This document shows positions 11,552 through 30,782 of a stretch of DNA of 64,000 bases, piece after piece (positions within the stretch are counted from its first letter, which is position 1; the number at the start of each line of letters is the position of its first letter). Source of the stretch: Candidatus Latescibacterota bacterium (lineage in GTDB: Bacteria; Latescibacterota; UBA2968; UBA8231); the NCBI GenBank assembly GCA_965261395.1, contig OZ253462.1, forward strand, positions 1,792,001-1,856,000, written 5' to 3'. A model generated the notes under the pieces. That model saw only the letters and a program-made list of their open reading frames with translations. It did not search any database and had not been told where the DNA came from. The translations under genes were made by a program, and so were the position numbers.

Positions 11552-11941
11552 ATGTGGCGGCTAAATACCGAAAACGCACCAGTGCTGACGCGAGCGGATA
11601 AAATCCTCGCGCTCGTCGTGGGCTTGAGTGCGATCGGGCTGGTACTCTACGGCCGCTACACGGCCGAAGCCGGCGGCGTGCTCATCGTCGAGTTGGCGGG
11701 GGCCACGCCTGCCACACATGCCCTCTCCAACTACGGAACTTTGTCGGTTGTAGGACCTTTGGGAGCGAGCGAGATTGAGATCGGCCCCAAGGGCGCGCGC
11801 GTGATTTTCGCGCCCTGCGTCCACAAGATCTGCATGCGGCAAGGCTGGATGCAGCGGGCGGGTGCCGTGACCGCGTGCGTGCCCAACGGCCTAGTGCTGA
11901 GGATCGCTGGAGCCGCGCCCCTAGACGCGATGATTCGCTGA
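11552..11941 (+). CDS. NusG domain II (DUF1312 / Lin0431-like) membrane-anchored protein
   Basis: N-terminal TM, then GPLGASEIEI...APCVHKICMRQGW...ACVPN. Confidence 0.85.
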   Translation: MWRLNTENAPVLTRADKILALVVGLSAIGLVLYGRYTAEAGGVLIVELAGATPATHALSNYGTLSVVGPLGASEIEIGPKGARVIFAPCVHKICMRQGWMQRAGAVTACVPNGLVLRIAGAAPLDAMIR

Positions 11942-12462
11942 TGTTTGCGCGACCTAGAGACGTGGCCCGCTTGGGGCTTATGGCTAGTGCGGCCATTGTG
12001 CTCTTCGCCTTTGAATCGCTGGTGCCCAAACCCTTGCCCTGGATGAAGTTGGGGCTTGGCAATTTGCCGGTTTTGGTCGCACTGGTGAGCTTTGGCGGCC
12101 GCCCGGCGTTGGCGATTAGTGCCACCAAGCTCGCAGTCGGCGGCTTGCTCAGCGGGGGCTTTGCCGGTCCGGCCTTTGTCATCGGCGGTGGGGCTAGCTT
12201 GACGAGCTGGCTGGTCATGGTTGCGGTCCGCCGCATGGGAACGCGGCTTTTCAGCGTCGTGGGCCTGAGCATCTGGGGCGCGTTGGCGCACCAGCTCAGC
12301 CAGCTCGTTATCGCCGCTGGCTATATCGGCCATAGCGGTCTGTTCGCGCTTTTGCCGCTGGCCTTGTTTAGCGCTTTAGTGAGCGGGGGCGCGATCGGCC
12401 TGTTGGCTTGGTGGACCTTGGAGCAACTAGCGAAAATAGGCTGGTTGGACCAGGATCAGTAA
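11941..12462 (+). CDS. Gx transporter family protein (so-called heptaprenyl diphosphate synthase component I)
   Basis: FESLVPKPLPWMKLGLGN, SVVGLSIWGALAHQLSQL. TGATG coupling with the upstream gene. Confidence 0.85.
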   Translation: MFARPRDVARLGLMASAAIVLFAFESLVPKPLPWMKLGLGNLPVLVALVSFGGRPALAISATKLAVGGLLSGGFAGPAFVIGGGASLTSWLVMVAVRRMGTRLFSVVGLSIWGALAHQLSQLVIAAGYIGHSGLFALLPLALFSALVSGGAIGLLAWWTLEQLAKIGWLDQDQ

Positions 12463-12495: not shown

Positions 12496-14460
12496 ATGCC
12501 GCAAGAGCCTACCTTTCAGGCCCCAGCACGAGCCGAGACGGTCTTCAGCGCCAAAGCGCTAGTGGCGGGCACGCTAGGATCGCTGTGCATCGCCGTGGGA
12601 GCACCGTACGGCAACACGGTCATCCGCGGCTCCTACATGTCGATTGATTTCAGCGCGGCGGGTGCCCTATTCCTCTTCTTCGTACTGACGGGCTTGTTCA
12701 ATGCCTTGCTGACTCGCCTCGCCGCTCCTGTGGCCCTCGGGCGCGGCGAGCTCATCGTCGCGTACATTATGATGCTGACGGCCTCGGCCATCCCCACGAT
12801 GGGCCTCAGCGAGTACTGGCTAACGATCATCACCGGCGCCCAGTACTACGCCACCCCGGAAAACGAGTGGGCCTTGCACATCCTGCCGCACCTTCCCGAG
12901 TGGATCGCGCCGCAGGATCCCGAGTCGATCAAGTGGTTTTACGAAGGAGCACCACGCACCGCTGGGGTGCCTTGGGCCGTCTGGGTCGGCCCGCTGTGCT
13001 ATTGGGCCGTGCTAATCGTGGCCCTGTACTTGGTTATGATCTCGTCGATGGTCATTCTGCGCCGCCAGTGGGTGGAGCGGGAGCGGCTGGTTTACCCGCT
13101 GGTGCAAGTGCCCTTGGCTATGGTGGAGAGCGGAGGCCGCGGACAGGCGCTAGGTCCTTTCTTCAAAAACCCGATCATGTGGATCGGCTTTGCCCTGCCC
13201 GTGTTCGTCAGCAGCCTCAACGCCCTACACGCGTACTTCAACTTCATTCCCGCCATCCAGCTCGTCTCCTCTGTGCCGATCCTGCGCAACACCACCAGCC
13301 TGATCTTCCGCCTGAGCTTTCCCATGGTGGGGTTCGCCTATCTAATCAACCTCGACATCGCCTTCAGCTTGTGGTTTTTCAACACCATTGCCAAGCTGAT
13401 CCGAGGGGGGCTGGGGATTTTAGGGGTCGGCAGCACCGAAAAGCTGGGCATCTACGGTGCTCCTAGCGAGCCAATTCTCGCCCACCAAGGGCAGGGGGCG
13501 ATGATCGTCTTAGTGCTTTTCGGCCTATGGGTCGGCCGCGAGCACCTGCGTGATGTGCTGCGCAAGGCCTTCAAGGGCGACGACCGCATCAACGACAGCG
13601 GCGAGATGCTCTCCTATCGAGCGGCGGTCTTAACCTGGCTCGCCGGAGTCGCGGTGATGACCATCTGGCTGTGGCAGTCCGGCTTGCCGCTGTGGGCGGC
13701 CTTTTTGACCCTGATGCTGGCCATCCTTATCTTCGTTGGCCTAACCCGGGTGGTAGTAGAAGGAGGCGTGGCCGCGGCAGTCGGGCCGATGATTTCTTCG
13801 TCGGCCTTGGTCTCGGCCGTAGGCTCTTCGGCGCTCGGCCCGGCGGGCATGGTGGGCCTCGCGTACACCTATGTGTGGGCGGCGGATATCCGCACGTTTG
13901 TCATGGCTTCCTGCGCGCACGGCCTTAAATTGGGCGAGGAACTGGGGCCGCGGCTGCGCCCGCTTTTTTGGTACATGCTGCTGGCGATTTTTGTCAGCAT
14001 TGTCGGTTCGGTCGCAGCGATTTTGTACCTCGCCTACGAATACGGCGGCATCAATCTCAACGGGTGGTTTTTTGGTGGTGGAACTCGCGCCCCTTTTGAT
14101 TATATTACCACCAAGTTAAGCGCGCCCACCAAGCCGAACATCGATGGCTGGATTCACACTTTTGTCGGCGGGGGCATCATGGCCCTGCTCATGTGGGCGC
14201 GCCAGCGGCTCTTGTGGTGGCCGCTGCATCCCATTGGATACCCCATTGGTGCCGTATGGCTGATGGATCAGTTGTGGTTTAGCATTGCCCTTGCTTGGCT
14301 CTTAAAGCTATTGGCGATGAAATACGGCGGTCCCAGCCTTTTTCGCCGGGCGCGTCCCTTCTTTTTAGGCCTGATCATAGGCCAGTTTTTCATCGCCGGG
14401 CTTTGGTTGATTATCGACTTTTTTATGGGCATGACCGACAATGTGGTCTTCTGGATCTGA
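12496..14460 (+). CDS. Large polytopic membrane protein, DUF6785/DUF6784 (OPT-like) family
   Basis: 654 aa, many TM helices. Motifs LRRQWVERERLVYPL, WWPLHPIGY, KYGG...ARPFFLGLIIG. Confidence 0.75.
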   Translation: MPQEPTFQAPARAETVFSAKALVAGTLGSLCIAVGAPYGNTVIRGSYMSIDFSAAGALFLFFVLTGLFNALLTRLAAPVALGRGELIVAYIMMLTASAIPTMGLSEYWLTIITGAQYYATPENEWALHILPHLPEWIAPQDPESIKWFYEGAPRTAGVPWAVWVGPLCYWAVLIVALYLVMISSMVILRRQWVERERLVYPLVQVPLAMVESGGRGQALGPFFKNPIMWIGFALPVFVSSLNALHAYFNFIPAIQLVSSVPILRNTTSLIFRLSFPMVGFAYLINLDIAFSLWFFNTIAKLIRGGLGILGVGSTEKLGIYGAPSEPILAHQGQGAMIVLVLFGLWVGREHLRDVLRKAFKGDDRINDSGEMLSYRAAVLTWLAGVAVMTIWLWQSGLPLWAAFLTLMLAILIFVGLTRVVVEGGVAAAVGPMISSSALVSAVGSSALGPAGMVGLAYTYVWAADIRTFVMASCAHGLKLGEELGPRLRPLFWYMLLAIFVSIVGSVAAILYLAYEYGGINLNGWFFGGGTRAPFDYITTKLSAPTKPNIDGWIHTFVGGGIMALLMWARQRLLWWPLHPIGYPIGAVWLMDQLWFSIALAWLLKLLAMKYGGPSLFRRARPFFLGLIIGQFFIAGLWLIIDFFMGMTDNVVFWI

Positions 14461-14477
14461 GAAAGGCACTTACAATT

Positions 14478-17400
14478 ATGCCTAAGTTCGCGGTGAGGTG
14501 GATGGCCTTTGGCTGGGTTCTGGCCGGCGCAACACTAGCCCAAGCCGAGGTCGATTTTGCCGAGTTGGCGCGCACGACCCCAGTCGAGCGCGTGCAGCAG
14601 ACGATGGACACCTTTGCCAGCTTGGGATCTAGAATCGCCGGCTACCCAGGTGCCGACCAAGCGGCCCAGATCGTGCAGGAGCGCTTCCGCGCAATCGGCC
14701 TCGACGACATCACAATCCACGAATACGATGTATCGATTCCTGTCGATAAGGGCGGATTCCTGCGGGTCGTCGAAAGTGGCGAACAAGTGCCAATTCACGG
14801 CCTCTGGCCCAATCTAGTCAAAACCTCGACGCTGCCCGAAGGCGGGGTGACCGGGCGCTTGATCGACGCCGGCGCGGGCGAGTACGCGGATATGGACGGC
14901 AAACAAGTCGAAGGAGCCGTGGCCCTGATGGACTTCAATTCGGGCGACGCCTGGCTCAATGCCGCCTATCTCGGAGCGCAGGCCATCGTCTTTATCGAGC
15001 CAGATTCCACCGTGTACTTGGAGGGCGAAAAGAAATTCCTCTCCATGCCGCTCGACCTGCCGAGGTTCTGGATCAATCGCCAAGCCGGTCAGCACTTGCG
15101 CCGCCAGTTGGCCGCCGAGGGCGAGCAGACGCTCCACCTAGAGTACCGCATGGATTGGGAGCGACGTCCCGCTTGGAATATCCTCGGCACGATCCCCGGA
15201 TACGATCCCTTGATGAAAGAGGACGTAATCGTGCTGGAGGCGTACTACGACGCCATGTCGGTCGTGCCGGCCCTCGCCCCGGGTGCCGAGCAGGCCTCCA
15301 GCATTACTGCGCTGTTGGAACTAGCGCGCTATTTCCGCGCAAACCCGCCGGCGCGCACGGTCGTCTTCCTCGCCACTTCGGCCCACCACTTGGGCTTGCG
15401 CGGGGTCGATGATTTCATCCAGCGCTATTTGCGCAAAGAGGATCCCTTTATCGAACACATGCTGGTGCGGCGGGTCGTCGATGCCGCACTCGCGCGGAAC
15501 ATGATCGCCCAAGACGGCATCCACTACGCCATCGGCGAGGAGGAGTTTACCGGCAAGGAAGCCCTCGTGCGAAGCGTTGCCGAAGGGCGCACCGACTTGG
15601 CCGCGCACATTGCCGCCGCCGCCCTCACCGAAGGGCTGCTGGGCCAAGAGGAAGACGCATCCAGCAGTTCATGGGGCTTGTGGAAGAAGACAATAGAGGG
15701 CATTAAGGGGCTGCTGAGTCGAGGAGAAGGCGCACTGCACCTCGCTGGCAAGCAATTCGAAAACCGCCACGAACTGGTTGACCAGCTAGACTCGGACGAC
15801 GACTTGCGCCTCGCCCTCTACAAGCGCTGGGTTGATCCCAAAGTCGATTCGCTCGCGGTCAAGCTCTTCATTAGCCTCGACCTTTCGTCGCAGACCGACG
15901 AGCTCGGGGTCTGGAATAGCAATACCAGCTTTTACTACAAGCGCTACTTCGCGCCCTTCGGCAAAAACTTCATGGCTTATGCGCGCAAGATCAGCCGCGA
16001 GCTGAACTACCAGCGGCGCGACGTGCTGGTCAATGGCATCAGTCCCGAAGGCGGGATGAGCTGGCAGACCTTTGTGCCGGGCGAAATATCGGTCAACAGC
16101 GAATTGGTGTTGGCGACCGGTACGCCGGCATTGGCCTTTGTCACCGTCAACGACGCGCGCTTCCTCGTCGATACGCCCTTAGACCGAGCTGAGCACGTCA
16201 ACCACGCCAATCTCGCCAAACAGATCCGGGTGCTCGCCGGCATGTTCGAGATGGCCTTTGAAGACCCAGAGCTTTTCCCGGATTTCAAGATGCGCCTGCG
16301 CGACAATCTGCGCTCGCTGCGCGGCCGGACTATGGTCTTTCCGCGCCGCAGCATCATTCCCGACCTACCGCGCGCAGACGCAGTGGCCGTCGTGCGCAAC
16401 GGCAAGAAAAAGTCGTACAAAGGCGTGCGCGGAGAATACTACGAAGTCGTCGATGATAAGGGGGCCTTTTACGTAAATCGGGTGCGGGTCAACAACGTGC
16501 AGATCGAGGGCTACTACATGGACCCGATCACCGGGCGCATTACCTATGCCCCGGACCGCGGCGTGCAAGGCGACGAGATCTACCCGATGAAGGTCTCCAT
16601 GGACTGGCGCGACAAGCAGTGGATGGTCATCCTCTTCCCCTGCGTGCCCTACAATTTCTTCGACATCGTCGATCCGCGCTATCTCACCAAACTATCCAAC
16701 GTGCAGGTCTTTGACGAGACGAACGGCGCGCCCGTGGAGTACGGTTACACCATCGGCGAAGGTCCCTCGGCCCAAAACGAGCCAGTTGGAGTGCTCTTCG
16801 CGCGGCCTGGCTCGCGCATAAAGATGGGTTTTGGCGCTGGCTTACTCGGTTTCCGCTCGCTATTGCTCAACGCCACCAGCGCCACCGACAAAGACAAGGC
16901 CGAGGGCGAGGGCTTTGAGATCCGCCCCGGCACCTCTTTTGCCCGCACGACCTTCCAAGCCGCCCAAGACATGTGGAATCTCGACGAGTCGCGGATGCGC
17001 GAGTTGCGGAGCTTTGCGATTGAGAACCAGCGTCTCAACGACCTCCACTACCGGGCCAAGACCGAGTTAGATCAAGCCGCGACGGCGGGTGCCGAGCAGC
17101 GTTGGCGCGACTTTGTGCGTCACACGCGCGCGGGCTTTGGGCTGGAGTCGCGCGCCTATCCAGACGTCAAATCCACCCAAAACGACGTCGTTCAGGGCAT
17201 TATCTTCTTTATGGCCCTCGTCATTCCCTGCGCCTTTTTTACCGAGCGACTCATTTTTACCGCCGCCACGATCCGCAATCAGATCATCGGATTCGTCGGG
17301 GTATTTCTAGTGATCTGGATCGTGCTGTGGATGGTGCATCCGGCCTTTCAGCTTTCCAATCCCTTCGTCATTCTGCTGGCCTTCATCATCATCGCGCTGG

Positions 17401-19304
17401 CCGTTCTCGTGATGTCGATCATCTCCGGCCGCTTCAACGAGCAGATGAAGAAGCTGCGCACCGAGGTGGCCGTGATCCACGACACGGACGTCAGCCGCTC
17501 TTCGGCTTCGGTGACGGCTTTCCAGCTCGGGATTTCCAATATGAAGCGGCGCAAGACGCGCACGGTTCTCACCTTTACCACGCTGTTGCTGCTGACCTTT
17601 ACGGTGCTCTCCTTCACTTCCATCCGCACGGGCCTGCGGTTCAACCAAATCAACCGCGACAATGAGGGTCTCTACGAGGGCATCCTAATCCGCAGTAAGG
17701 CGTGGAATCCGATGGAGGATTCAGTCCTCGAATACGCCCGCAGCAATTTCGGTGATCGGGCCGCAGTCGCGCCGCGCAGTTGGTATAGCAACAAGGCCAA
17801 GGCGCACATCAAAATAAAACACGGCGACAAGGCCCATAACGCGCTCGGCGTCCTCGGATTGACCCCGGAGGAAACCGAGGTCACCGGGCTGCACCAAGCC
17901 CTAGTCGCCGGGCGGTGGTTTGAGCCGGGCGAGGGCAAGGTCTGCATCCTGCCCATCGACATGGTCAAAGAGGCCCATCTCGACATCGACCTCGCCGATG
18001 TCGGCCAAGCGCAGGTCCGCATTTTCGGCGACTTGTTCACGGTCGTTGGCGTCCTCGACTCCAAGCGGATGAAGGACCTCAAAGACCTCGACGATGAAAT
18101 CCTGACGCCAGCCGACTTCGCCGTCACCGGCGGCCAAGCCGTGCAGGAAATCGCCGAGGAAGAAAAGCGCGAGAAGCAGGGCTTGGAGGACGCCAAGGTC
18201 GTCATCAAGCCCTTTGTCCATCTAGAACCGGCCAACATCCTAATCGCGCCCTACCACACGCTGCGCAACGTCGGCAGCGGCAACCCCCTGCAATCCGTGG
18301 CCGTGCGCTTTCCCGAGGGCAGCGACGTGCGCGGCGAGGTCGAGGAGTTCCTCTCGCGCCTCGCGGTGACGCTGTTCGCCGGAGTCAAGGAGCCCGGCGA
18401 TGAATACATCAAGGTGTCGATCTATTCATCGCTGGGGATGACCTCCTTTTCCGGGATGAGCAACTTGTTCATACCCATGCTGATCGCCTCGCTAATCGTG
18501 CTCAACACCATGATGGGCAGCGTGTACGAGCGCTTCCGCGAAATCGGCATCTATTCTTCGGTGGGCCTAGCCCCCGGCCATATCTCTTGGCTCTTTATCG
18601 CCGAGAGCTGCGTCTATTCGGTGCTGGGCGTCGTCGCCGGTTATCTCAGCGGCCAAGTAGTCGCCAAAGTGCTCATCGAGTTCGACCTGCTGGGTGGCTT
18701 CACGCTCAACTACTCCTCAGTGGCCGCGGTGCTCTCCTGTATGCTGGTGATGGCCGTGGTCATGCTCTCGACGATCTATCCAGCGCGCAAGGCTTCGCAG
18801 ATGGCCGTGCCGGACGTGACCCGCAAGTGGAAGCTGCCGCCGCCCGACGGCGACCAATGGGATTTCGAGTTCCCTTTTACGGTCAGCGGCCACGAGGTCT
18901 TGGGCTTGAGCGTATTCCTCATTGGCTACTTCGACTCCTACAGCGAGGAGTCCATCGGCACCTTCTACACCGACGGTGCCCAGCTAAGCCGCGAAGAAAC
19001 GCCCAACGGCGAAGGGTACCTCATCGACATGAATATCTGGCTGGCTCCTTTCGATTTGGGCGTCAGCCAACACGTCACCGTGCAGGCTATGCCAGAGGCC
19101 GAGCACAACATTTACGCAGTCGGCCTGCAAATCAAGCGACTCAGCGGCGAGGACGCCTCGTGGCGGAGGGTCAACCAGCGCTTTATGAACGTCATCCGCA
19201 AACAGTTCCTCATCTGGCGCACGGTGGATGCCGAGGCCAAAGAAGGCTACCGCCAACAGGGTGCGGAAATTTTGCAAGGACTGCGCAGCGAAGTGTCGGC
19301 GTAA
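14478..19304 (+). CDS. Fusion: signal peptide + PA/M28 peptidase-like ectodomain + MacB/FtsX-like permease
   Basis: Start at MPKFAVR (SD AAGG). M28-fold motifs NILGTIPG, VIVLEAYYD, ALLELAR, SLDL. Permease motifs ISNMKRRKTRTVLT and LNTMMGSVYERFREIGIYSSVGL. Confidence 0.82.
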   Translation: MPKFAVRWMAFGWVLAGATLAQAEVDFAELARTTPVERVQQTMDTFASLGSRIAGYPGADQAAQIVQERFRAIGLDDITIHEYDVSIPVDKGGFLRVVESGEQVPIHGLWPNLVKTSTLPEGGVTGRLIDAGAGEYADMDGKQVEGAVALMDFNSGDAWLNAAYLGAQAIVFIEPDSTVYLEGEKKFLSMPLDLPRFWINRQAGQHLRRQLAAEGEQTLHLEYRMDWERRPAWNILGTIPGYDPLMKEDVIVLEAYYDAMSVVPALAPGAEQASSITALLELARYFRANPPARTVVFLATSAHHLGLRGVDDFIQRYLRKEDPFIEHMLVRRVVDAALARNMIAQDGIHYAIGEEEFTGKEALVRSVAEGRTDLAAHIAAAALTEGLLGQEEDASSSSWGLWKKTIEGIKGLLSRGEGALHLAGKQFENRHELVDQLDSDDDLRLALYKRWVDPKVDSLAVKLFISLDLSSQTDELGVWNSNTSFYYKRYFAPFGKNFMAYARKISRELNYQRRDVLVNGISPEGGMSWQTFVPGEISVNSELVLATGTPALAFVTVNDARFLVDTPLDRAEHVNHANLAKQIRVLAGMFEMAFEDPELFPDFKMRLRDNLRSLRGRTMVFPRRSIIPDLPRADAVAVVRNGKKKSYKGVRGEYYEVVDDKGAFYVNRVRVNNVQIEGYYMDPITGRITYAPDRGVQGDEIYPMKVSMDWRDKQWMVILFPCVPYNFFDIVDPRYLTKLSNVQVFDETNGAPVEYGYTIGEGPSAQNEPVGVLFARPGSRIKMGFGAGLLGFRSLLLNATSATDKDKAEGEGFEIRPGTSFARTTFQAAQDMWNLDESRMRELRSFAIENQRLNDLHYRAKTELDQAATAGAEQRWRDFVRHTRAGFGLESRAYPDVKSTQNDVVQGIIFFMALVIPCAFFTERLIFTAATIRNQIIGFVGVFLVIWIVLWMVHPAFQLSNPFVILLAFIIIALAVLVMSIISGRFNEQMKKLRTEVAVIHDTDVSRSSASVTAFQLGISNMKRRKTRTVLTFTTLLLLTFTVLSFTSIRTGLRFNQINRDNEGLYEGILIRSKAWNPMEDSVLEYARSNFGDRAAVAPRSWYSNKAKAHIKIKHGDKAHNALGVLGLTPEETEVTGLHQALVAGRWFEPGEGKVCILPIDMVKEAHLDIDLADVGQAQVRIFGDLFTVVGVLDSKRMKDLKDLDDEILTPADFAVTGGQAVQEIAEEEKREKQGLEDAKVVIKPFVHLEPANILIAPYHTLRNVGSGNPLQSVAVRFPEGSDVRGEVEEFLSRLAVTLFAGVKEPGDEYIKVSIYSSLGMTSFSGMSNLFIPMLIASLIVLNTMMGSVYERFREIGIYSSVGLAPGHISWLFIAESCVYSVLGVVAGYLSGQVVAKVLIEFDLLGGFTLNYSSVAAVLSCMLVMAVVMLSTIYPARKASQMAVPDVTRKWKLPPPDGDQWDFEFPFTVSGHEVLGLSVFLIGYFDSYSEESIGTFYTDGAQLSREETPNGEGYLIDMNIWLAPFDLGVSQHVTVQAMPEAEHNIYAVGLQIKRLSGEDASWRRVNQRFMNVIRKQFLIWRTVDAEAKEGYRQQGAEILQGLRSEVSA

Positions 19305-19317
19305 GGGAGGATAGCGA

Positions 19318-21738
19318 GTGCTCGGAAGCAAAAATAGAAACCCGAACCAAGAGATCGAAGAATATCGGGATCTAATGCAGGTCCCGGACCGCTTCGAGAA
19401 CGGCTTTACGATCAAGGCCATCCTCGGCGTGTTCTTCGTTGCCTTTATCATGGTGCCGGGCAACATGTACTTGAGCCTGATGATCGGCGGCTCGCTAGGG
19501 GCGGCGGCCGAGTGGGTGACGATCATCCTCTTCGCCGAAATCACCAAGCGCTCCTTTTCCACCCTCCGGCGCCAAGAAGTCTACGTGCTGTTCTACGTGG
19601 CCGCCTCGCTGATTGCCGCTGAGACCGGTGCCTTTGAGGGCTTGCTCTACAACCAGTACTTGGTGCAATCGCCAGCGGCCAAGCAGTTTGGCATCGCCAA
19701 GCTGATCCCCACCTGGGTGGCACCGCCAGTCGACTCCCAAGCCATCCTCGAGCGGACCTTTCTGCACGCGGATTGGGCGATGCCGATCGTACTCTTGGTC
19801 TTGGGGATGATCATCTGGCGCGTCAACTGGTTTACCATGTCGTACGCGCTCTTCCGGCTCAACTCCGACTACGAGCGCCTGCCCTTTCCCTTCGCGCCCG
19901 TAAACGCCCAAGGCGCTACGGCACTGGCCGAGACTACCCAAGGACTTGAGACTTGGCGCTGGCGGGTATTCTCGGCGGGGGCAATGATCGGCTTGGTTTT
20001 TGGCACGATCTACGTGGCCCTGCCGGCGATTACCGGCGCACTGCTGACCGAGCCGATCCAACTCATACCCATTCCCTTTGTTGACTTCACGCAAGTCACC
20101 GGCAACTTCATCCCGGCAACTCCGCTGGGATTTACCGCGCACTTGGGGCCGATCTTCGTCGGTTTAGTAGTGCCGTTCTGGGGCGTGGTTGGCACCTTTA
20201 TCGGCATCGTCGTCGCCGCCATTGCCAACCCGCTGCTCTATACTTGGACGCCTTCGTGGCGCGAGGAGCCTTACCTGAACCTGTGGCGGCAAGGCATGGG
20301 CTCGATAGATACCTTCTTCGTCAACAACGTTGATTTCTGGATGAGCTTTGGCATCGGCACCACCATCGCTATCGCCATCATCGGCATCTATCAGGTAGTT
20401 CAGAGCGTGCGTGGAGCCAGGGCCAACACCGGGGAGGAAGGCGAGCCCAAGCGCAGTTTCGCCACCCCCGAGGGCCGCGGCGATTTTCCCATCTGGGTGG
20501 CGCTAGCCCTGTACGCCTTGGCCACGGCCGGCCTGATCGGCATCGCCGCTTGGCTGCTGCCGGGCATTGCCCAATTTATATGGTTTTTCCTCTTTTTTGG
20601 TTTCGTATTCACGCCCTTTCAGTCCTTTGTCAACGCTCGCCTAGTCGGGATGGTAGGGCAGACGGTGGACATCCCCTTCGTGCGCGAGGCGACGATTATT
20701 CTCTCTGGGTATCGCGGCGTTGACATCTGGTTCATTCCGTTTCCCTTGGGCAACTACGGTGCCCAGACCCAGAAGTTCCGCGAGATCGAATTAACCGGCA
20801 CCCAGTTTACCAGCATCATCCGCGCCGAGATTTTCATGGTGCCAATCGTGCTCTTTACCAGTTTTCTCTACGGCTCCTATATCTGGAAACTGGCACCGAT
20901 CCCATCGGCATCCTATCCCTATGCCCAGCTATTCTGGCGGCTGCGGGCCTATCAGCAATGCCTCTTTATTACCGGCACCATGCGCAGCGAACTCGCCATA
21001 GACAACGATCGGGCGGGATGGACCCCGGCTAACCTGATCGAGAACGAGTGGTGGTACTGGCGGGTGCGGTTGGTGGATCAGGAGTGGCTGGACTCCAATG
21101 GCAAGCTCGGTCAAATCGGCCCGTGGATGCCGACCCAAGTTTTCTACTCGTACTTCGACCAAGGGTCACCCGACATCGTCGCCGAACGCTACCTGCGCGA
21201 CGAGCAGCTAGCCGAAGAGGACATTGTCGCGGGCTTGCCGGCAATTGCGCCGCTAGGGCCGGCCATGGACACCGTCATCCGCGACCCCCGCCCAACCCTC
21301 GAAGTGAAGGTCGGGCGAGCCGTGCCCGCGGGATGGTCCTTCTACTTCGAGGTCGATGCCGATCCGCTCTTTACCAGTTCCTGGATCCAGCGTTCCACCG
21401 ACGAGCCTTGGCTGTATAAAGCGCTCAAGCCAGAGGTCATGGCCTTCGGAGCCGGCTTCGGGCTGGTGAGTTTCATTCTGCTCTCCATCCTCGGGCTGCC
21501 GATCCTGTTGATCTTTGGCTTCGTGCGCTCGCTGACGGTCCTGCCGCATCTTGTGGTGACCGAGATCGTCGGCGCGCTCTTGGCTCGCTACTACTTCTGG
21601 AACAAGTACGGGCGACAGGAGTGGCGACAGTTTGCCCCGATTCTGGCGGTGGGCTTCTCCTGCGGCATGGCATTGATGGGGATGGCGGCGGTGGGGGTCG
21701 CCCTGATCCAGAAATCGGTCTCCGTGCTGATCTTCTAG
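19318..21738 (+). CDS. OPT-like polytopic membrane protein with inserted beta-sandwich domain
   Basis: 806 aa, many TMs, DYERLPFPFAPV motif parallel to ERLVYPL of 12496..14460. GTG start with SD GGAGG. Confidence 0.72.
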   Translation: MLGSKNRNPNQEIEEYRDLMQVPDRFENGFTIKAILGVFFVAFIMVPGNMYLSLMIGGSLGAAAEWVTIILFAEITKRSFSTLRRQEVYVLFYVAASLIAAETGAFEGLLYNQYLVQSPAAKQFGIAKLIPTWVAPPVDSQAILERTFLHADWAMPIVLLVLGMIIWRVNWFTMSYALFRLNSDYERLPFPFAPVNAQGATALAETTQGLETWRWRVFSAGAMIGLVFGTIYVALPAITGALLTEPIQLIPIPFVDFTQVTGNFIPATPLGFTAHLGPIFVGLVVPFWGVVGTFIGIVVAAIANPLLYTWTPSWREEPYLNLWRQGMGSIDTFFVNNVDFWMSFGIGTTIAIAIIGIYQVVQSVRGARANTGEEGEPKRSFATPEGRGDFPIWVALALYALATAGLIGIAAWLLPGIAQFIWFFLFFGFVFTPFQSFVNARLVGMVGQTVDIPFVREATIILSGYRGVDIWFIPFPLGNYGAQTQKFREIELTGTQFTSIIRAEIFMVPIVLFTSFLYGSYIWKLAPIPSASYPYAQLFWRLRAYQQCLFITGTMRSELAIDNDRAGWTPANLIENEWWYWRVRLVDQEWLDSNGKLGQIGPWMPTQVFYSYFDQGSPDIVAERYLRDEQLAEEDIVAGLPAIAPLGPAMDTVIRDPRPTLEVKVGRAVPAGWSFYFEVDADPLFTSSWIQRSTDEPWLYKALKPEVMAFGAGFGLVSFILLSILGLPILLIFGFVRSLTVLPHLVVTEIVGALLARYYFWNKYGRQEWRQFAPILAVGFSCGMALMGMAAVGVALIQKSVSVLIF

Positions 21739-21739
21739 C

Positions 21740-22732
21740 ATGAGCGATCGGGTGGATTTTGCTTGGCAAGGACTGCGGTTGTCCGTGCCTGACGACTGGA
21801 ATCTCGGCCGAGTTGACGGGGATTTTGAAAAGGGCTATGCCCGCCTCGACGACGCCGAAATCGTGCGCGCCGAGATCGAATGGCGGCGTCTCAAAGGCCG
21901 CGGCGAGGCCCTGCGCCTGACCGAGCTGGTAGATCGCTACTTGGCCAACTTGCAAAAGAAGGCCCAAAAGGTCGATGCCCCCTTTGAGGTCCAGCGCCGC
22001 GCCCGATTCCTCAAAAACAAGAAATTCCTCGAAGGCCGCGACTACGAGGTCTTCATCTGGGAGGCCGACTTTCGCGCATACAATCTAGCGCTCGCCTTGA
22101 AGTCCGGGCGGGTAGTGCTCCTGAGAGTGCTGGCTAGGCTAGACGAGTCCCTGCCCGAGCAAGCCGAGGCCGTGTTCAGCTCGCTCGTCGACCAAGAAGG
22201 CGAGGCCGCCTACCTGTGGAGCGTGTACGGCTTGCGGTTTTTCGCGCCCAGCGACCTCAAGCTACAAAGCCATGCCCTCAAGTCGGGCCACATCCAGCTA
22301 GAGTTTACCCTCGGCAAACAGGTTCTGCGGGTGCATCGGTTGAGCATGGCCCGAATCATGCTCAAAGAAGCGCACATTCAAGACTGGTATCCGGTTTTTT
22401 TTAAGAAGCAATTGCGCGACTTCGTGGTGGACATTGCTCCAGAGGCCGTGCAGGAACACGAGGGCATTCGCGTCGAGGGGCGGCCGCGCAGCCGCTGGCG
22501 TCAGTTGATCCGTCCCCTGCCCTTTATGAACCCGAGGCCGCGCCTGTATCTGCGAGGGCGCGTCTGGCGCGATGCTAGCCTCGACAAGATCTTCATCGTC
22601 GAGCACCTCTACCGCAAGAAAGACACAGCAGACGAGCTAGTCTCCAAGGTAGTAGATGGGCATTTTATCGAAAGACAAGGGACCCAAGCTGAGCCGGGCC
22701 GCCATGCTGGCGTCGCGGCCAACACGCAATGA
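21740..22732 (+). CDS. Hypothetical soluble protein with two similar halves
   Basis: 330-aa ORF starting 1 nt after the previous stop. No TM or signal peptide. Confidence 0.75.
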   Translation: MSDRVDFAWQGLRLSVPDDWNLGRVDGDFEKGYARLDDAEIVRAEIEWRRLKGRGEALRLTELVDRYLANLQKKAQKVDAPFEVQRRARFLKNKKFLEGRDYEVFIWEADFRAYNLALALKSGRVVLLRVLARLDESLPEQAEAVFSSLVDQEGEAAYLWSVYGLRFFAPSDLKLQSHALKSGHIQLEFTLGKQVLRVHRLSMARIMLKEAHIQDWYPVFFKKQLRDFVVDIAPEAVQEHEGIRVEGRPRSRWRQLIRPLPFMNPRPRLYLRGRVWRDASLDKIFIVEHLYRKKDTADELVSKVVDGHFIERQGTQAEPGRHAGVAANTQ

Positions 22733-23087
22733 GTCCCTGAGTTGGGAGAACAACGACAACGGCGAGGTTCAGGTCTCAATAAAGCGCCAAGAGACCTGGA
22801 AGGTGAGGCTGCTGTCCAAGTTTTTCTACATACCCAGGCAGCGCAAAATCACCCTCGACGAGGTCGGCAGCGAGGTCTGGCGGATGTGCAACGGCCGCAG
22901 TTCGGTCGGCGAGATGATAGAAGAGCTCAGCGACAAGTACCAGCTCAACCGCAAGGAGGCCGAGGTCTCTCTGCTCCAATATTTGAAAACTCTCGGGCAG
23001 AAGCGCTTTATCGGCTTTGTGCTAGCAGGCGACGAGAGGCCGCCCGATCGCGGCACGGCCAGCGGCAAAAAATGGCAAAAGAAATAG
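22656..23087 (+). CDS. PqqD family / RiPP-recognition-element-like protein
   Basis: ITLDEVGSEVWRMCNGRSSVGEMIEELSDKYQL...LLQYLKTLGQKRFI winged-helix signature. Confidence 0.85.
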   Translation: MGILSKDKGPKLSRAAMLASRPTRNESLSWENNDNGEVQVSIKRQETWKVRLLSKFFYIPRQRKITLDEVGSEVWRMCNGRSSVGEMIEELSDKYQLNRKEAEVSLLQYLKTLGQKRFIGFVLAGDERPPDRGTASGKKWQKK

Positions 23088-23692
23088 AGAGGGGCGAGCA
23101 ATTAGCTCGTCCCTCTTTTAGTCTGCACCCGCACCGAGTCGCACGCTTCCTCTCGCACTTGCTCAATCCCGCGTTGTTGGCGCTGTTGGTCTTTGGCGTC
23201 CAAGCGCACGTGCTGGGCGACTGGCGCGGTGGCGCGGTGGCCATTGGCACCTTCTCTGTTGTACCTGGGTTGCTACTCTGGCACTTGGTGCGCTCGGGCT
23301 ATCTCGATAAAGCCTATACAGACGACCGCAACAAACGCGGCACCCTGCTCTTGTTGGGCGCTTGTTGCTACGCTTTGGGGGGAGCGGCCCTTTACGGGAT
23401 CAGTGTCCCGCCCCTGATGCTGGTCACAGCCGCGTCCTGTGTCATCAACACGCTCTTGGTCTGGTGGATCAATCGCTCCTATAAGATCAGCATTCACGCG
23501 GCTGGCGTCGGAGGGGCGACCTACATATTGTTGATCAGCGTCGGCAGTGCGGCGTGGCCCTTTTTGCTAAGTTGGCCGGCCGTCGCCTGGGCGCGGCTTT
23601 ACTTGCGGGCGCATACTCCCATGCAACTCGGCGCGGGCGGTGCGCTGGGCGTTGGGAGTACGGCACTACTGTACAATGCTTTCATGTTGTGA
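23072..23692 (+). CDS. PAP2-like membrane protein
   Basis: About 6 TMs, KISIHAAG and VAWARLYLRAHT motifs. Start reassigned to ATG 23072 (uncertain). Confidence 0.65.
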   Translation: MAKEIERGEQLARPSFSLHPHRVARFLSHLLNPALLALLVFGVQAHVLGDWRGGAVAIGTFSVVPGLLLWHLVRSGYLDKAYTDDRNKRGTLLLLGACCYALGGAALYGISVPPLMLVTAASCVINTLLVWWINRSYKISIHAAGVGGATYILLISVGSAAWPFLLSWPAVAWARLYLRAHTPMQLGAGGALGVGSTALLYNAFML

Positions 23693-23701
23693 GCACGGCA
23701 C

Positions 23702-30552: not shown

Positions 30553-30554
30553 GT

Positions 30555-30589
30555 TAGTGAAGAGTGATGAGTGGTAAGTAGTGAGTGGA
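30555..30589. repeat. Five imperfect tandem heptamers (NAGTRRN)
   Basis: TAGTGAA GAGTGAT GAGTGGT AAGTAGT GAGTGGA. Confidence 0.6.
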
Positions 30590-30782
30590 TTCGTCCGCAC
30601 TGAGATCGCAATTTCAGCCTCTTAAAAATGCGTTTGGGGATGCTCTTGAAGCGTCAAAAAACGGCGTGCAGAACACGTCTTTCTTTTACCGATAGACGCG
30701 GACGATGTCGGCGGCCACTTTGTTCGGTGCAGCGACCCCCCCAAAACTACCGAGCCCGATCATCGCTAGCTACCGAGTTCCT

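What the first reader, a model, noticed from the sequence alone, without database searches (positions are those of the whole stretch)
12496..23692. Candidate undescribed membrane system: two OPT-like proteins + pseudo-peptidase-FtsX fusion + PqqD/RRE, with no ATPase
Seen: six co-oriented genes with gaps of 17, 13 and 1 nt or overlaps. They encode a 654-aa DUF6785/6784-type membrane protein, a ~1600-aa M28-like + MacB/FtsX fusion, an 806-aa OPT-like protein, a 330-aa soluble protein, a PqqD-family protein and a PAP2-like protein (whose membership is least certain). Known: MacB/FtsX permeases normally work with a LolD/FtsE-type ATPase, OPT proteins are secondary peptide/metal-chelate carriers, and PqqD/RRE domains bind peptides. 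No ATPase, precursor peptide or tailoring enzyme is in the operon. Inference: a multi-subunit, possibly ion-gradient-driven complex that captures peptides outside (peptidase-fold receptor), moves them through the OPT-like pair and hands them to a cytoplasmic RRE. An alternative is a membrane-protein biogenesis or signalling platform. I know of no characterised system with this architecture.
Basis: partly seen in the sequence, partly recalled or inferred. Interest (0 to 1): 0.88.

Follow-up and report, generated by a model that had tools for sequence, protein, structure and literature searches.

The report
MacB-type ABC machine with DUF6785 partners
The gene cluster is real and belongs to a widespread, undescribed membrane machine, but it is very probably driven by an ATPase that this genome encodes elsewhere, not by an ion gradient.

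Summary
The six co-oriented genes and their domain content are confirmed. "No ATPase" holds only for the locus.

In other phyla, relatives of the giant M28-like/MacB-FtsX fusion (g2) and its OPT-like neighbour (g3) sit beside a minimal 4-TM FtsX permease (sFtsX) and a LolD-class ATPase, usually with a PqqD gene. This genome has one orthologous sFtsX-ATPase pair, 1.2 Mb away.

Co-occurrence of g2 with sFtsX (both / g2 only / sFtsX only / neither):
- Armatimonadota: 97/1/0/23 of 121 genomes.
- Latescibacterota: 130/7/1/13 of 151.

DUF6785 (g1's family) has 56 copies here and tracks g2 just as closely. A g2::DUF6785 fusion is conserved in four genera. g3 is a distant DUF6785 homologue (hhalign 95%).

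Best reading: a new modular type VII ABC system in which few g2 copies and one PqqD-sFtsX-ATPase module serve many DUF6785-type membrane partners. Substrate and direction are unknown; uptake is inferred. No paper in the searched library mentions it.

The parts
12496..14460 (+). g1: polytopic membrane protein, DUF6785 + DUF6784 (654 aa, at least 11 hydrophobic segments). It is one of 56 DUF6785 genes in this genome.
   Evidence: Pfam 4e-126 and 8e-31. 56 matches in the own genome. Hydropathy. A g1-type gene is adjacent to all 7 g2 paralogues and fused to one of them.
14478..19304 (+). g2: giant fusion (1608 aa). In order: signal-like N-terminus; periplasmic PA/M28-like pseudo-aminopeptidase; beta-rich domain and helical stalk; 3 TM; MacB-type TM1-PCD-TM2-4; cytoplasmic C-terminal domain.
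   Evidence: Pfam. PDB sequence matches to the aminopeptidase entry 6hc6 (3.5e-9) and MacB 5lil (1.8e-9). AF2 model of residues 1-905, pLDDT 83.5. Foldseek. Hydropathy gives 7 TM. 7 paralogues in the genome.
14550..16277 (+). g2 residues about 25-600: PA-domain M28 fold with a degenerate metal and catalytic site. The window copy has an inserted low-confidence segment at about 330-460.
   Evidence: Foldseek top hits: 2ek8 (1.1e-20), BSAP 6hc6, PaAP 8acg, transferrin receptor 3kas, GCPII 2pvv. Motif AYYD / PGAE / S-x-H-H in 20 of 20 aligned relatives.
17187..17423 (+). g2 residues 904-982: three extra transmembrane helices before the MacB module.
   Evidence: Hydropathy scan.
17562..18803 (+). 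g2 residues 1029-1442: MacB/FtsX module (TM1, periplasmic core domain, TM2-TM4 with the ERFREIG loop).
   Evidence: MacB_PCD residues 1029-1215 and FtsX residues 1331-1442. MacB 5lil match over residues 1255-1442.
18810..19301 (+). g2 residues 1445-1608: conserved C-terminal domain of no known family. It should be cytoplasmic if the topology is MacB-like.
   Evidence: Invariant columns such as W1521-L-A-P-x-D-x-G in 7 paralogues. The WLAP[FYL]D motif retrieved 584 relatives. No Pfam match.
19318..21738 (+). g3: polytopic membrane protein (806 aa, at least 13 hydrophobic segments) with no Pfam family. It is a distant homologue of DUF6785 with a weak OPT-like C-terminus.
   Evidence: hhalign of g1 and g3 profiles: 95.4%, E 1.8e-8, 447 columns. 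Sub-threshold OPT matches. Lies directly downstream of g2 in 52 of 70 related loci with enough downstream sequence. 5 copies in the genome.
21740..22732 (+). g4: soluble 330-aa protein with a tandem PsbP/Mog1-like fold. Single copy in the genome; an accessory restricted to some lineages.
   Evidence: AF2 pLDDT 83.9, pTM 0.81. Foldseek: TplEi/Tli4 5h7z (2.8e-6), PsbP entries with TMt 0.5-0.65, SciW. No TM segments. Present in 24 of 30 close orthologous loci and in 1 of 8 distant ones.
22656..23087 (+). g5: PqqD/RRE-family protein (143 aa). Single copy in the genome. In other phyla it is encoded next to the minimal FtsX permease and the ATPase.
   Evidence: Pfam PqqD 8e-12. One copy. Gene orders [g3][PqqD][sFtsX][ABC] in L090 and L098 and [PqqD][sFtsX][ABC] in L114. 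Found in 95 of 121 Armatimonadota genomes and adjacent to sFtsX in 85 of those 95.
23072..23692 (+). g6: small polytopic protein with a weak PAP2-like match. It is a neighbour and its membership is doubtful.
   Evidence: PAP2 E 1.1e-3, 19.2 bits, below the 27.2 cut-off. Found in 23 of 30 close orthologous loci but at variable distance, and not detected in the more distant groups.

Best explanation
The cluster is one locus of a widespread, uncharacterised type VII (MacB/FtsX-class) ABC machine whose engine is encoded elsewhere in this genome.

Core parts, shown by linkage, fusion and co-occurrence:
1. g2, a giant protein. Its MacB-type 4-TM module and periplasmic core domain are extended by three TM helices, a helical stalk, a beta-rich domain and a transferrin-receptor-like, catalytically degenerate PA/M28 ectodomain.
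2. One or two polytopic partners of the DUF6785 superfamily (g1 and the divergent g3).
3. A cytoplasmic PqqD/RRE protein (g5).
4. A minimal 233-aa FtsX permease with almost no periplasmic domain (sFtsX).
5. A 256-aa LolD-class ATPase.
Parts 4 and 5 are encoded once, at G000:3040659-3042151.

Inferred mechanism: an ATPase dimer docks on a g2/sFtsX permease pair (heterodimer by analogy with LolC/LolE). ATP binding and hydrolysis are transmitted through the stalk helices to the periplasmic domains. That movement is coupled to a DUF6785-type partner, which provides the path through the membrane.

This genome has 7 g2 genes, 5 g3 genes and 56 DUF6785 genes, but one sFtsX, one cognate ATPase and one PqqD. 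So the engine is probably shared among many substrate-specific membrane modules, in the manner of group II ECF transporters.

The direction is most likely uptake of organic nutrients, because most DUF6785 copies lie among catabolic genes. Direction and substrate are inferred, not shown. g4 is an accessory restricted to some lineages. g6 and the flanking genes are neighbours.
For: Linked engine:
- 9 of the 19 most distant g2 loci carry sFtsX plus an ATPase 70-74% identical to this genome's. They occur in two gene orders: [sFtsX][ABC][g2][g3] and [g2][g3][(g4)/PqqD][sFtsX][ABC].
- All 5 genomes whose g2 locus lacks the pair have sFtsX elsewhere, with the ATPase directly downstream in 5 of 5.
- The own genome has one orthologous pair.

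Co-occurrence of g2 with sFtsX (both / g2 only / sFtsX only / neither):
- Armatimonadota: 97/1/0/23 of 121, and within 12 kb in 53 of 97.
- Latescibacterota: 130/7/1/13 of 151. All 7 'g2 only' genomes are at most 89% complete.
- PqqD: found in 95 of 121 Armatimonadota genomes, all of them sFtsX-positive, and within 2.5 kb of sFtsX in 85 of 95.

DUF6785 link:
- All 7 own g2 paralogues sit beside a DUF6785 gene.
- A g2::DUF6785 fusion is read without stops in ORFs of 2100-2661 aa in 13 further genomes of 4 genera and is confirmed by Pfam in P0012.
- In Armatimonadota, DUF6785 is present in exactly the same 98 genomes as g2.
- In Latescibacterota the counts are 136 both, 1 and 1 singly, 13 neither.
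- g3 is a DUF6785 homologue.
- The g2-linked DUF6785 copies are scattered through the paralogue tree, not one clade.

No local ATPase at any of the 7 g2 copies, whereas every other FtsX gene has one nearby.

Catabolic neighbours of unlinked DUF6785 copies: sulfatase, GFO/IDH/MocA, MR_MLE, aldo-keto reductase and PhyH clusters.

Family size: 989 clusters at 50% identity match the g2-specific middle region at E<=1e-10.

RNA-library contigs of related strains bridge every junction from g1 to g6.
Against: - No physical interaction was shown, and the heterodimer is an analogy.
- In Latescibacterota the absences come from one family (f10, 0 of 13), so that phylum contributes about one evolutionary event. 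The kinship of the Armatimonadota genomes is not told, so the independence of those counts is unknown.
- In the third phylum the system is nearly universal (DUF6785 60 of 65, g2 59 of 65, with 5 mismatches), so it tests little.
- Four well-flanked loci (L045, L047, L053, L060) have g2 with no g1 or g3 within 10 kb.
- Neighbours of the six paralogous g2 loci are heterogeneous and mostly on the other strand.
- Known type VII ABC systems act on periplasmic or outer-leaflet substrates, and none is known to me as an importer (recalled). So uptake has no precedent in this class.
- A near-universal single copy in 0.9-2.7 Mb genomes, and FtsY, LptF/G and MlaD neighbours in one lineage, fit a housekeeping envelope role as well as uptake.
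- RNA contigs also bridge into the flanking genes, and the libraries may hold DNA.
- Pfam describes DUF6785 as also archaeal (recalled). I could not test whether such genomes have g2.
Confidence: 0.6

Rival explanations
1. Envelope-maintenance machine rather than a nutrient transporter. The ATP-driven g2/sFtsX pair does mechanical work in the periplasm or outer leaflet, as FtsEX-EnvC, LolCDE or YbbAP-TesA do. It might extract, hand over or activate something, with the DUF6785/g3 proteins as clients or scaffolds and the dead M28/PA domain as a docking platform.
For: - Every characterised type VII ABC system listed (I saw only the search listing and the starts of abstracts) acts in the envelope.
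- g2 is near-universal and single copy in a phylum of 0.9-2.7 Mb genomes (59 of 65).
- In L088, L090 and L098 the genes lie between FtsY and LptF/LptG/MlaD genes.
- One long relative (P0021) carries N-terminal LysM repeats, and two others (P0043, P0087) carry Big_5 domains.
- No FtsX_ECD match and no FtsE match above cut-off in this genome.
- The own sFtsX-ATPase pair follows glycosyltransferase and sugar-epimerase-like genes.
Against: - It does not explain 56 DUF6785 copies scattered among sulfatase, dehydratase and oxidoreductase genes.
- It does not explain why DUF6785 copy number runs from 1 to more than 50 while the engine stays at one copy.
- The FtsY/Lpt context is one lineage, so one observation.
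Confidence: 0.2
2. Peptide (RiPP-like or signal peptide) exporter. The PqqD/RRE protein binds a leader peptide in the cytoplasm, the DUF6785/g3 protein or the MacB module moves the peptide out, and the M28-like ectodomain handles it outside.
For: - PqqD is a core, single-copy component next to sFtsX and the ATPase.
- g5 matches peptide-chaperone NCBIfam models at 1e-7 to 4e-7, below their cut-offs.
- The ATPase also scores on a darobactin-export ATPase model, below its cut-off.
- A conserved 68-77-aa ORF precedes g2 in L088, L090 and L098. It was not examined further.
Against: - No precursor, radical-SAM, cyclase or other maturase gene recurs among the neighbour clusters of the 80 loci.
- The M28 site is degenerate in all lineages.
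- The expansion of DUF6785 inside catabolic loci does not fit export of one peptide.
Confidence: 0.08
3. One reading: an ATPase-less, ion-gradient-driven complex. It captures peptides with the peptidase-fold receptor, moves them through the two OPT-like proteins and hands them to the RRE.
For: - No ABC ATPase lies within 17 kb of any of the 7 g2 copies in this genome.
- Automatic 'peptide transporter' names and weak OPT-like signals for g1 and g3.
Against: - The cognate sFtsX-ATPase pair is linked in other phyla and co-occurs almost perfectly with g2.
- g2 keeps the ERFREIG loop between TM2 and TM3, also present in sFtsX. That this loop is where MacB-type permeases contact their ATPase is recalled.
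Confidence: 0.05
4. Two separate systems. sFtsX-ATPase-PqqD is a self-contained small transporter, and g2 with DUF6785/g3 is something else. They merely share phyletic range and are often neighbours.
For: - In this genome, and in most Latescibacterota loci fetched, the two sets are unlinked.
- sFtsX alone could form a homodimeric minimal MacB-type permease.
Against: - g2 would then be a MacB-type permease with no ATPase in any genome.
- sFtsX was never found without g2 among 121 Armatimonadota genomes, and only once among 151 Latescibacterota genomes, in one that is 57% complete.
- Adjacency is kept in two different gene orders.
Confidence: 0.07

Closest known systems
MacB (MacAB-TolC) and the type VII ABC superfamily
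   Same: FtsX 4-TM module plus a MacB periplasmic core domain in g2 (PDB 5lil 1.8e-9). The partner ATPase is of the LolD/MacB/FtsE class. The expected principle is mechanotransmission.
   Different: The ATPase is not fused and not even linked in this genome. No membrane-fusion or outer-membrane partner recurs among the neighbours. g2 adds about 1000 residues of ectodomain and 3 TM helices. A second permease lacks a periplasmic domain. Obligatory DUF6785-type and PqqD partners have no counterpart.
LolCDE
   Same: Two different FtsX-type permeases with one separate ATPase gene. This is the model for the proposed g2/sFtsX heterodimer. NCBIfam lolCE and LolD models give the best partial scores for sFtsX and the ATPase.
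   Different: All scores are far below the equivalog cut-offs (53.5 against 362 bits; 228.9 against 307.75 bits). One partner is minimal and the other giant. The genome has several other LolC/E-like sets, each with its own ATPase.
FtsEX-EnvC and YbbAP-TesA
   Same: A type VII ABC engine that works on a periplasmic enzyme-fold partner. EnvC is a degenerate LytM protein (recalled). For both papers I saw only the search listing and the starts of abstracts: PMC7668044 and PMC12646458.
   Different: Here the dead enzyme fold (M28/PA) is fused to the permease. No FtsX_ECD and no FtsE above cut-off. No hydrolase partner is known.
Group II ECF transporters (an analogy of logic only)
   Same: One energising module encoded once, and many substrate-specific membrane components scattered through the genome next to the genes that use the substrate. 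Here: 1 sFtsX, 1 ATPase and 1 PqqD against 56 DUF6785 genes.
   Different: The folds are unrelated. Sharing is inferred from copy numbers and co-occurrence only. An intermediate layer of 7 g2 genes has no ECF counterpart.
OPT family (Pfam PF03169, TIGR00728)
   Same: Large polytopic proteins of similar size. Weak C-terminal matches of g3-type proteins (6e-5; 7e-5 and 5e-4). A cluster in which 31% of members carry OPT is the fourth look-alike of g1, at score 0.77.
   Different: No match reaches a curated cut-off, and no DUF6785 gene matches the OPT model at E<=1. OPT proteins are secondary carriers that need no ABC partner (recalled).
Non-catalytic M28/PA receptors: transferrin receptor, nicastrin, nicalin
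   Same: PA plus M28 fold with lost catalytic residues, exposed outside the membrane as a binding platform. Foldseek hits to TfR1 (3kas 2.4e-17, 1cx8) and a faint sequence hit to nicalin (0.09).
   Different: Those are eukaryotic single-pass proteins and are not fused to an ABC permease. What g2 binds is unknown.
PqqD / RiPP recognition elements
   Same: g5 passes the Pfam PqqD cut-off (45.8 against 23.4 bits).
   Different: No RiPP precursor or maturase is linked. It is encoded with an FtsX permease and an ABC ATPase, a context I did not find described.

Membership tests
Type VII ABC transporter (MacB/FtsX class) | FtsX-type 4-TM permease module with a periplasmic domain between TM1 and TM2 | tested here: met
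   g2: FtsX 56.8 bits (cut-off 25.5) and MacB_PCD 33.9 bits (cut-off 27). The MacB structure 5lil matches residues 1255-1442. Four hydrophobic segments lie at the expected places.
Type VII ABC transporter (MacB/FtsX class) | Cognate LolD/MacB/FtsE-class ATPase | tested here: met
   Not in the locus. Linked in 9 of the 19 most distant loci and in 5 of 5 extra loci. One orthologue in the own genome, 70-74% identical to the linked ones. It scores on LolD, MacB and FtsE models, below their equivalog cut-offs. That the ATPase pairs with g2 is inferred from linkage and co-occurrence.
Type VII ABC transporter (MacB/FtsX class) | Dimeric permease bound to two ATPase subunits, with ATP-dependent conformational work | not testable with these tools
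   Needs biochemistry or a structure.
Peptidase M28 (active aminopeptidase) | M28 fold | tested here: met
   Foldseek 2ek8 1.1e-20 and 6hc6 2.8e-18 on an AF2 model of pLDDT 83.5. Pfam 36.2 bits (cut-off 21.3), over profile positions 1-79 only.
Peptidase M28 (active aminopeptidase) | His/Asp/Glu/Asp/His zinc ligands and a catalytic Glu (residue list recalled) | tested here: not met
   AYYD in place of the His motif and S-x-H-H/F in place of Glu-Glu in 20 of 20 aligned relatives. The bridging Asp is Glu in most. It is not filed as an active peptidase.
DUF6785 / DUF6784 | Pfam gathering scores | tested here: met
   g1: 421.9 and 106.6 bits. g3 does not match either model, but its profile aligns to the g1 profile at 95.4% probability, E 1.8e-8. 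So g3 is a distant relative, not a member as the family is defined.
OPT oligopeptide transporter family | Pfam PF03169 or TIGR00728 cut-off | tested here: not met
   g3: 21.8 bits against 128.35. Genome scan: 23.3 and 20.6 bits against 25.8, both at g3-type C-termini; no DUF6785 gene matched at E<=1.
PqqD / RRE | Pfam PqqD cut-off | tested here: met
   g5: 45.8 bits against 23.4. All specific NCBIfam models score below their cut-offs. Peptide binding was not testable.
PAP2 phosphatase | Pfam PAP2 cut-off | tested here: not met
   g6: 19.2 bits against 27.2, E 1.1e-3. The catalytic motifs were not examined.
PsbP/Mog1-like fold (g4) | Structural similarity of a confident model | tested here: inconclusive
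   Model pLDDT 83.9. Foldseek probability 1.00 to two-domain TplEi/Tli4 (TM 0.36-0.40) and to single-domain PsbP (target-normalised TM 0.5-0.65), with 7-17% identity. This is a fold resemblance only.
ECF-type modular transporter | EcfT/EcfA module and S-components | not tested
   Not a member. Cited only as an analogy for a shared engine.

The most novel reading that the evidence does not exclude
DUF6785 proteins (and g3) are exchangeable, substrate-specific membrane modules of a previously unrecognised class of ABC importer. Its engine is a MacB-type mechanotransmission pair (g2 plus a minimal FtsX) with one shared ATPase. A PqqD/RRE subunit recognises a peptide segment of whichever module docks. 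This would be the first importer in the type VII class, and a second, independent invention of the 'one engine, many modules' design known from ECF transporters. It would serve as a main nutrient-uptake system of Latescibacterota, Armatimonadota and related uncultured phyla.
Probability: 0.3. Interest if true: 0.95.

Novelty: new variant of a known kind. Interest (0 to 1): 0.8.

Why it matters
- It assigns a context, and a testable role, to two Pfam families of unknown function. They reach 56 copies in one 6.5-Mb genome and were not mentioned in any paper of the searched library.
- It adds a large family to the type VII ABC superfamily, about 1000 clusters at 50% identity. The architecture differs from MacAB, LolCDE, FtsEX, BceAB and YbbAP.
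- It gives the PqqD/RRE fold a conserved place outside peptide maturation.
- If the shared-engine reading holds, it changes how transport capacity is read from genomes of uncultured, polysaccharide-degrading phyla, where these genes are now annotated as unrelated hypothetical proteins.
- It is also a caution: a missing ATPase in a locus is weak evidence that a system has none.

Tried and rejected
- Complex prediction of g2 residues 985-1608 with sFtsX: no verdict. The score was 0.31 against a mark of 0.32, and the controls were not run. It is used neither for nor against binding.
- BLASTP of g1 against g3 found nothing (E 0.44). The relationship appeared only with profiles.
- PDB sequence searches of g1 and g3 gave nothing useful.
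- The protein atlas gave only automatic 'peptide transporter' names and a 0.77 OPT lead. No structural search was possible.
- My greedy ORF caller put some genes on the wrong strand. The sFtsX and ATPase genes were hidden, and one search gave 12 false 'none' loci. I replaced it with the ORF listing and a six-frame HMM scan. Counts are not used.
- Neighbour-cluster counts rest on the same caller, so they are approximate. Only 10 cluster representatives were annotated, although 14 were fetched.
- The consensus promoter and terminator scan gave no operon boundary: 2 promoter-like sites against 3.7 expected, and 21 terminator-like sites against 14.3 expected.
- RNA contigs cannot show a single transcript, strand or level. 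Uncovered bins and the fall in depth after about 23.2 kb are not used as evidence.
- Literature: 'DUF6785' and 'DUF6784' gave 0 papers. 'Latescibacteria' + 'oligopeptide transporter' + 'ABC transporter' gave 0. 'FtsX'/'M28'/'PqqD' gave 1 irrelevant paper. The 'type VII ABC transporter' search listed only known systems, and I read only the listing and the starts of abstracts. No paper was opened. Supplements are closed and were not requested.
- Rejected idea: that the sFtsX-ATPase pair is canonical FtsEX. There is no FtsX_ECD match and all FtsE scores are below cut-off. A functional analogue is not excluded.
- Not followed: the four g2-only loci (L045 type), the extra ATPase paralogue near g1-g2 in L067 and L079-L081, the small ORF before g2 in L088/L090/L098, and the g2 C-terminal domain.

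Full report
**1. The observation**

The window is G000:C1:1792001-1856000 of a single-contig 6.55-Mb genome with about 60% G+C. Its closest public relatives are records titled Candidatus Latescibacterota/Latescibacteria MAGs, with g2 up to 96% identical.

Six co-oriented ORFs lie at the reported coordinates, with gaps of 17, 13 and 1 nt followed by overlaps of 77 and 16 nt.

- g1: DUF6785 + DUF6784.
- g2: Peptidase_M28 (N-terminal part of the profile only) + MacB_PCD + FtsX.
- g3: no Pfam family, and only a sub-threshold OPT match at the C-terminus.
- g4: nothing.
- g5: PqqD.
- g6: PAP2 below cut-off.

The co-oriented run also includes two upstream genes (NusG_II, Hpre_diP_synt_I) and a downstream RecD2 helicase gene.

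**2. Anatomy of g2**

Hydropathy gives seven TM segments: three at residues 904-982 and the four of the MacB module. With the signal-like N-terminus, residues about 25-900 and the PCD face the periplasm. The last about 165 residues face the cytoplasm.

An AF2 model of residues 1-905 (pLDDT 83.5, pTM 0.84) matches PA-domain M28 aminopeptidases: 2ek8 at 1.1e-20, BSAP and PaAP. It also matches the non-catalytic transferrin receptor and GCPII. A beta-rich domain and three long helices leading into the membrane follow.

In 20 of 20 aligned relatives from several phyla, the first His ligand is Tyr and the Glu-Glu pair is x-His. The degeneracy is therefore ancient and conserved, with its own invariant residues (D258, E271, H303 among the 7 paralogues).

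**3. Paralogues in the same genome**

- DUF6785 matches 56 places in the genome.
- g2 has 7 copies, g3 has 5, and g4, g5 and g6 have one each.
- Every g2 copy lies beside a DUF6785 gene, and four of the other six also have a g3-type gene.
- At G000:5207158-5213532, g2 and a DUF6785 protein form one 2124-aa ORF.
- The junction of that fusion is read through without stops in ORFs of 2100-2148 aa in 6 genomes of the same genus. It is also read through in ORFs of 2123-2135 aa in 4 genomes of a second genus (61-64% identity), and of 2280-2661 aa in 3 genomes of two more genera.
- A representative fusion protein (P0012) carries FtsX + DUF6785 + DUF6784 by Pfam.

This is 'Rosetta stone' evidence that g2 and DUF6785 proteins work together physically.

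The other roughly 49 DUF6785 genes lie among TPR, FlgD_ig-containing, PhyH, GFO/IDH/MocA, sulfatase, MR_MLE and aldo-keto-reductase genes. A FastTree of the paralogues places the seven g2-linked copies scattered among unlinked ones. Linkage therefore does not mark a specialised subfamily.

**4. g3 and the 'OPT-like' label**

BLASTP finds no similarity between g1 and g3. Profiles of 52 g1 paralogues and 30 g3 relatives align at 95.4% probability, E 1.8e-8, over 447 columns, including a shared ERL-x-(Y/F)-P motif.

The OPT Pfam model finds only two sub-threshold C-terminal matches in the genome, both in g3-type genes. So the two polytopic proteins are distant homologues of each other. Their kinship to OPT is an untested lead.

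**5. The missing ATPase**

None of the 7 g2 FtsX domains lies within 17 kb of an ABC_tran match. All 23 other FtsX matches lie within 8.5 kb of one.

A scan of species-representative genomes with the g2 alignment found 584 relatives, and 80 loci were fetched.

- In 9 of the 19 loci with g2 at 50% identity or less, a small FtsX-only protein (214-273 aa) and an ABC ATPase are adjacent.
- The order is [sFtsX][ABC][g2][g3] in records titled Armatimonadota or unclassified.
- The order is [g2][g3][(g4)/PqqD][sFtsX][ABC] in another lineage.
- These ATPases are 70-74% identical to one ATPase of the window's genome (L109:9381-10151, 256 aa).
- That ATPase is preceded by a 233-aa FtsX-only protein (L109:8659-9360), 42-52% identical to the linked sFtsX proteins by tblastn.
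- By NCBIfam the ATPase is of the LolD/MacB/FtsE class, and sFtsX has only the FtsX domain.
- sFtsX has four TM segments and about 50 residues between TM1 and TM2.

**6. Co-occurrence**

Latescibacterota, 151 genomes:
- g2 was found in 137 at E<=1e-30. It was found in 0 of 13 genomes of family f10.
- A full-length sFtsX orthologue (E<=1e-30) was found in 131. Family f10 gave only weak partial FtsX hits.
- The 2x2 table is 130 both / 7 g2 only (60-89% complete) / 1 sFtsX only (57% complete) / 13 neither.

Armatimonadota, 121 genomes:
- sFtsX in 97 and g2 in 98: 97 both / 1 g2 only / 0 sFtsX only / 23 neither.
- The two lie within 12 kb in 53 of 97 genomes, with a median of 5.7 kb between match starts.

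Other checks:
- Five of five genomes whose g2 locus lacked the pair have sFtsX elsewhere, with the ATPase directly downstream in all five.
- DUF6785 follows the same pattern. In Latescibacterota it is in 137 of 151 genomes: 136 both, 1 and 1 singly, 13 neither. In Armatimonadota it is in exactly the same 98 handles as g2.
- In a third phylum of 65 small genomes, DUF6785 is in 60 and g2 in 59 (57 both, 3, 2, 3). g2 is nearly always single copy.

Related genomes are not independent, so these are not significance tests. In Latescibacterota the absences amount to one event.

**7. PqqD, g4 and g6**

- Among close orthologous loci (g2 at 63% or more), g3, g4, g5 and g6 are found in 28 of 33, 24 of 30, 24 of 30 and 23 of 30 loci with enough downstream sequence. 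This holds even where g1 is absent.
- A PqqD orthologue sits between g3 and sFtsX in L090 and L098.
- A PqqD orthologue sits directly upstream of sFtsX-ABC in L114.
- In the Armatimonadota sample it is present in 95 of 121 genomes, all of them sFtsX-positive, as one match per genome.
- It lies within 2.5 kb of sFtsX in 85 of those 95.
- PqqD-sFtsX-ATPase is therefore a conserved trio. In this genome the PqqD gene has stayed with one g2 locus, while sFtsX and the ATPase lie elsewhere.
- g4 folds confidently (pLDDT 83.9) as a tandem PsbP/Mog1-like protein. It resembles the two-domain T6SS immunity protein TplEi/Tli4, PsbP and the chaperone SciW. It has no TM or signal segment and is restricted to some lineages.
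- g6 is a weakly PAP2-like neighbour at variable distance.

**8. Expression**

Fourteen RNA-library runs hold part of the stretch; the 19 rows listed come from 6 studies. Some runs carry the label sponge metagenome.

Contigs from four of those runs (three studies), 95-99% identical to the window, bridge g1|g2, g2|g3, g3|g4|g5 and g5|g6. They also bridge Hpre_diP_synt_I|g1 and g6|RecD2.

This is compatible with expression and co-transcription. It is not proof, because contigs show no single transcript and DNA may be present in the libraries.

**9. Reading**

Shown:
- composition;
- the g2-DUF6785 fusion;
- linkage of the engine in other phyla;
- tight co-occurrence of g2, sFtsX, PqqD and DUF6785;
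- copy numbers of 7 g2, 5 g3 and 56 DUF6785 genes against 1 sFtsX, 1 ATPase and 1 PqqD.

Inferred:
- a g2/sFtsX heterodimer with two ATPase subunits, as in LolCDE;
- ATP-driven movement of the ectodomains coupled to a DUF6785-type partner;
- one engine shared by many modules;
- uptake as the direction, from the catabolic neighbours.

The main rival is an envelope-maintenance role. It fits the class's known biology, the near-universal single copy in small genomes, the FtsY/Lpt/Mla context in one lineage and the LysM or Big_5 extensions in long relatives.

**10. Novelty**

The g2-specific middle region matches 989 clusters at 50% identity at E<=1e-10. No paper in the searched library names DUF6785 or DUF6784. 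The other searches found only the known type VII systems (listings only).

I file it as a new variant within the type VII ABC superfamily. The bolder reading, a new modular importer class, is kept at about 0.3.

Noticed in passing
whole genome G000 (for example G000:C1:4797488-4801046, 4814593-4818126, 5383438-5386915): DUF6785 is expanded to 56 matches in a 6.55-Mb genome, with several tandem pairs or triplets. Neighbour clusters include sulfatases, GFO/IDH/MocA oxidoreductases, enolase-superfamily dehydratases, aldo-keto reductases, PhyH and TPR proteins.
   Followed up: partly
G000:C1:4897252-4898001 (-), outside the window: An orphan LolD-class ATPase (249 aa) next to a UvrB-like gene, with no FtsX match nearby. 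It is 51-57% identical to the ATPases linked to g2 in other phyla and is the second-best hit after the sFtsX-linked one. It could be a second ATPase subunit or unrelated.
   Followed up: no
window 11552-12462 (+): A NusG_II-domain gene and a gene of the Hpre_diP_synt_I membrane-protein family overlap each other and end 33 nt before g1. The 196-aa protein recurs upstream in 16 of the 80 related loci, all close relatives. One RNA-library contig bridges into g1.
   Followed up: partly
window 23702-25876 (+) and 25891-30600 (-): A RecD2-type helicase gene starts 9 nt after g6. A convergent 1569-aa ORF with helicase-like motifs follows. I saw its translation only and did not annotate it.
   Followed up: no
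whole genome G000: No FtsX_ECD match and no FtsE match above the curated cut-off. The only FtsX-family protein under 400 aa is the sFtsX described here.
   Followed up: partly
L067:3694-4485, L079:6227-7015, L080:6173-6961, L081 (about 6163): Some Latescibacterota loci carry an extra ATPase paralogue (59-60% identical to the sFtsX-linked one) 3-6 kb upstream of g1-g2, with no sFtsX detected beside it.
   Followed up: no
L045, L047, L053, L060 (g2 at 10001 to about 14740): One subgroup of g2 orthologues (67-68% identity) has no g1- or g3-type gene within 10 kb. A 939-aa ORF follows g2 in L045.
   Followed up: no
P0021, P0043, P0087 (representative proteins): Long g2 relatives (2451-3053 aa) carry N-terminal LysM repeats or Big_5 Ig-like domains in front of the M28-like domain.
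   Followed up: partly
L088:9627-9833, L090:9633-9866, L098:9634-9867: A conserved small ORF (68-77 aa, no Pfam family for the L090 copy) lies between an FtsY-like gene and g2 in one lineage. In that lineage the system is flanked by ETF, FtsY, GGDEF, LptF/LptG, MlaD and PilZ-ABC genes.
   Followed up: partly
window 14000-23700: Near-identical sequence (up to 70% of sampled words) is held by metatranscriptome runs of several studies. Some of those runs are labelled sponge metagenome.
   Followed up: partly
window 35867-36316 (G000:1827867-1828316): The nearest ABC_tran match to the cluster lies in a 791-aa ORF 16.5 kb downstream. It is too long to be a stand-alone LolD-type ATPase and was not examined.
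   Followed up: no
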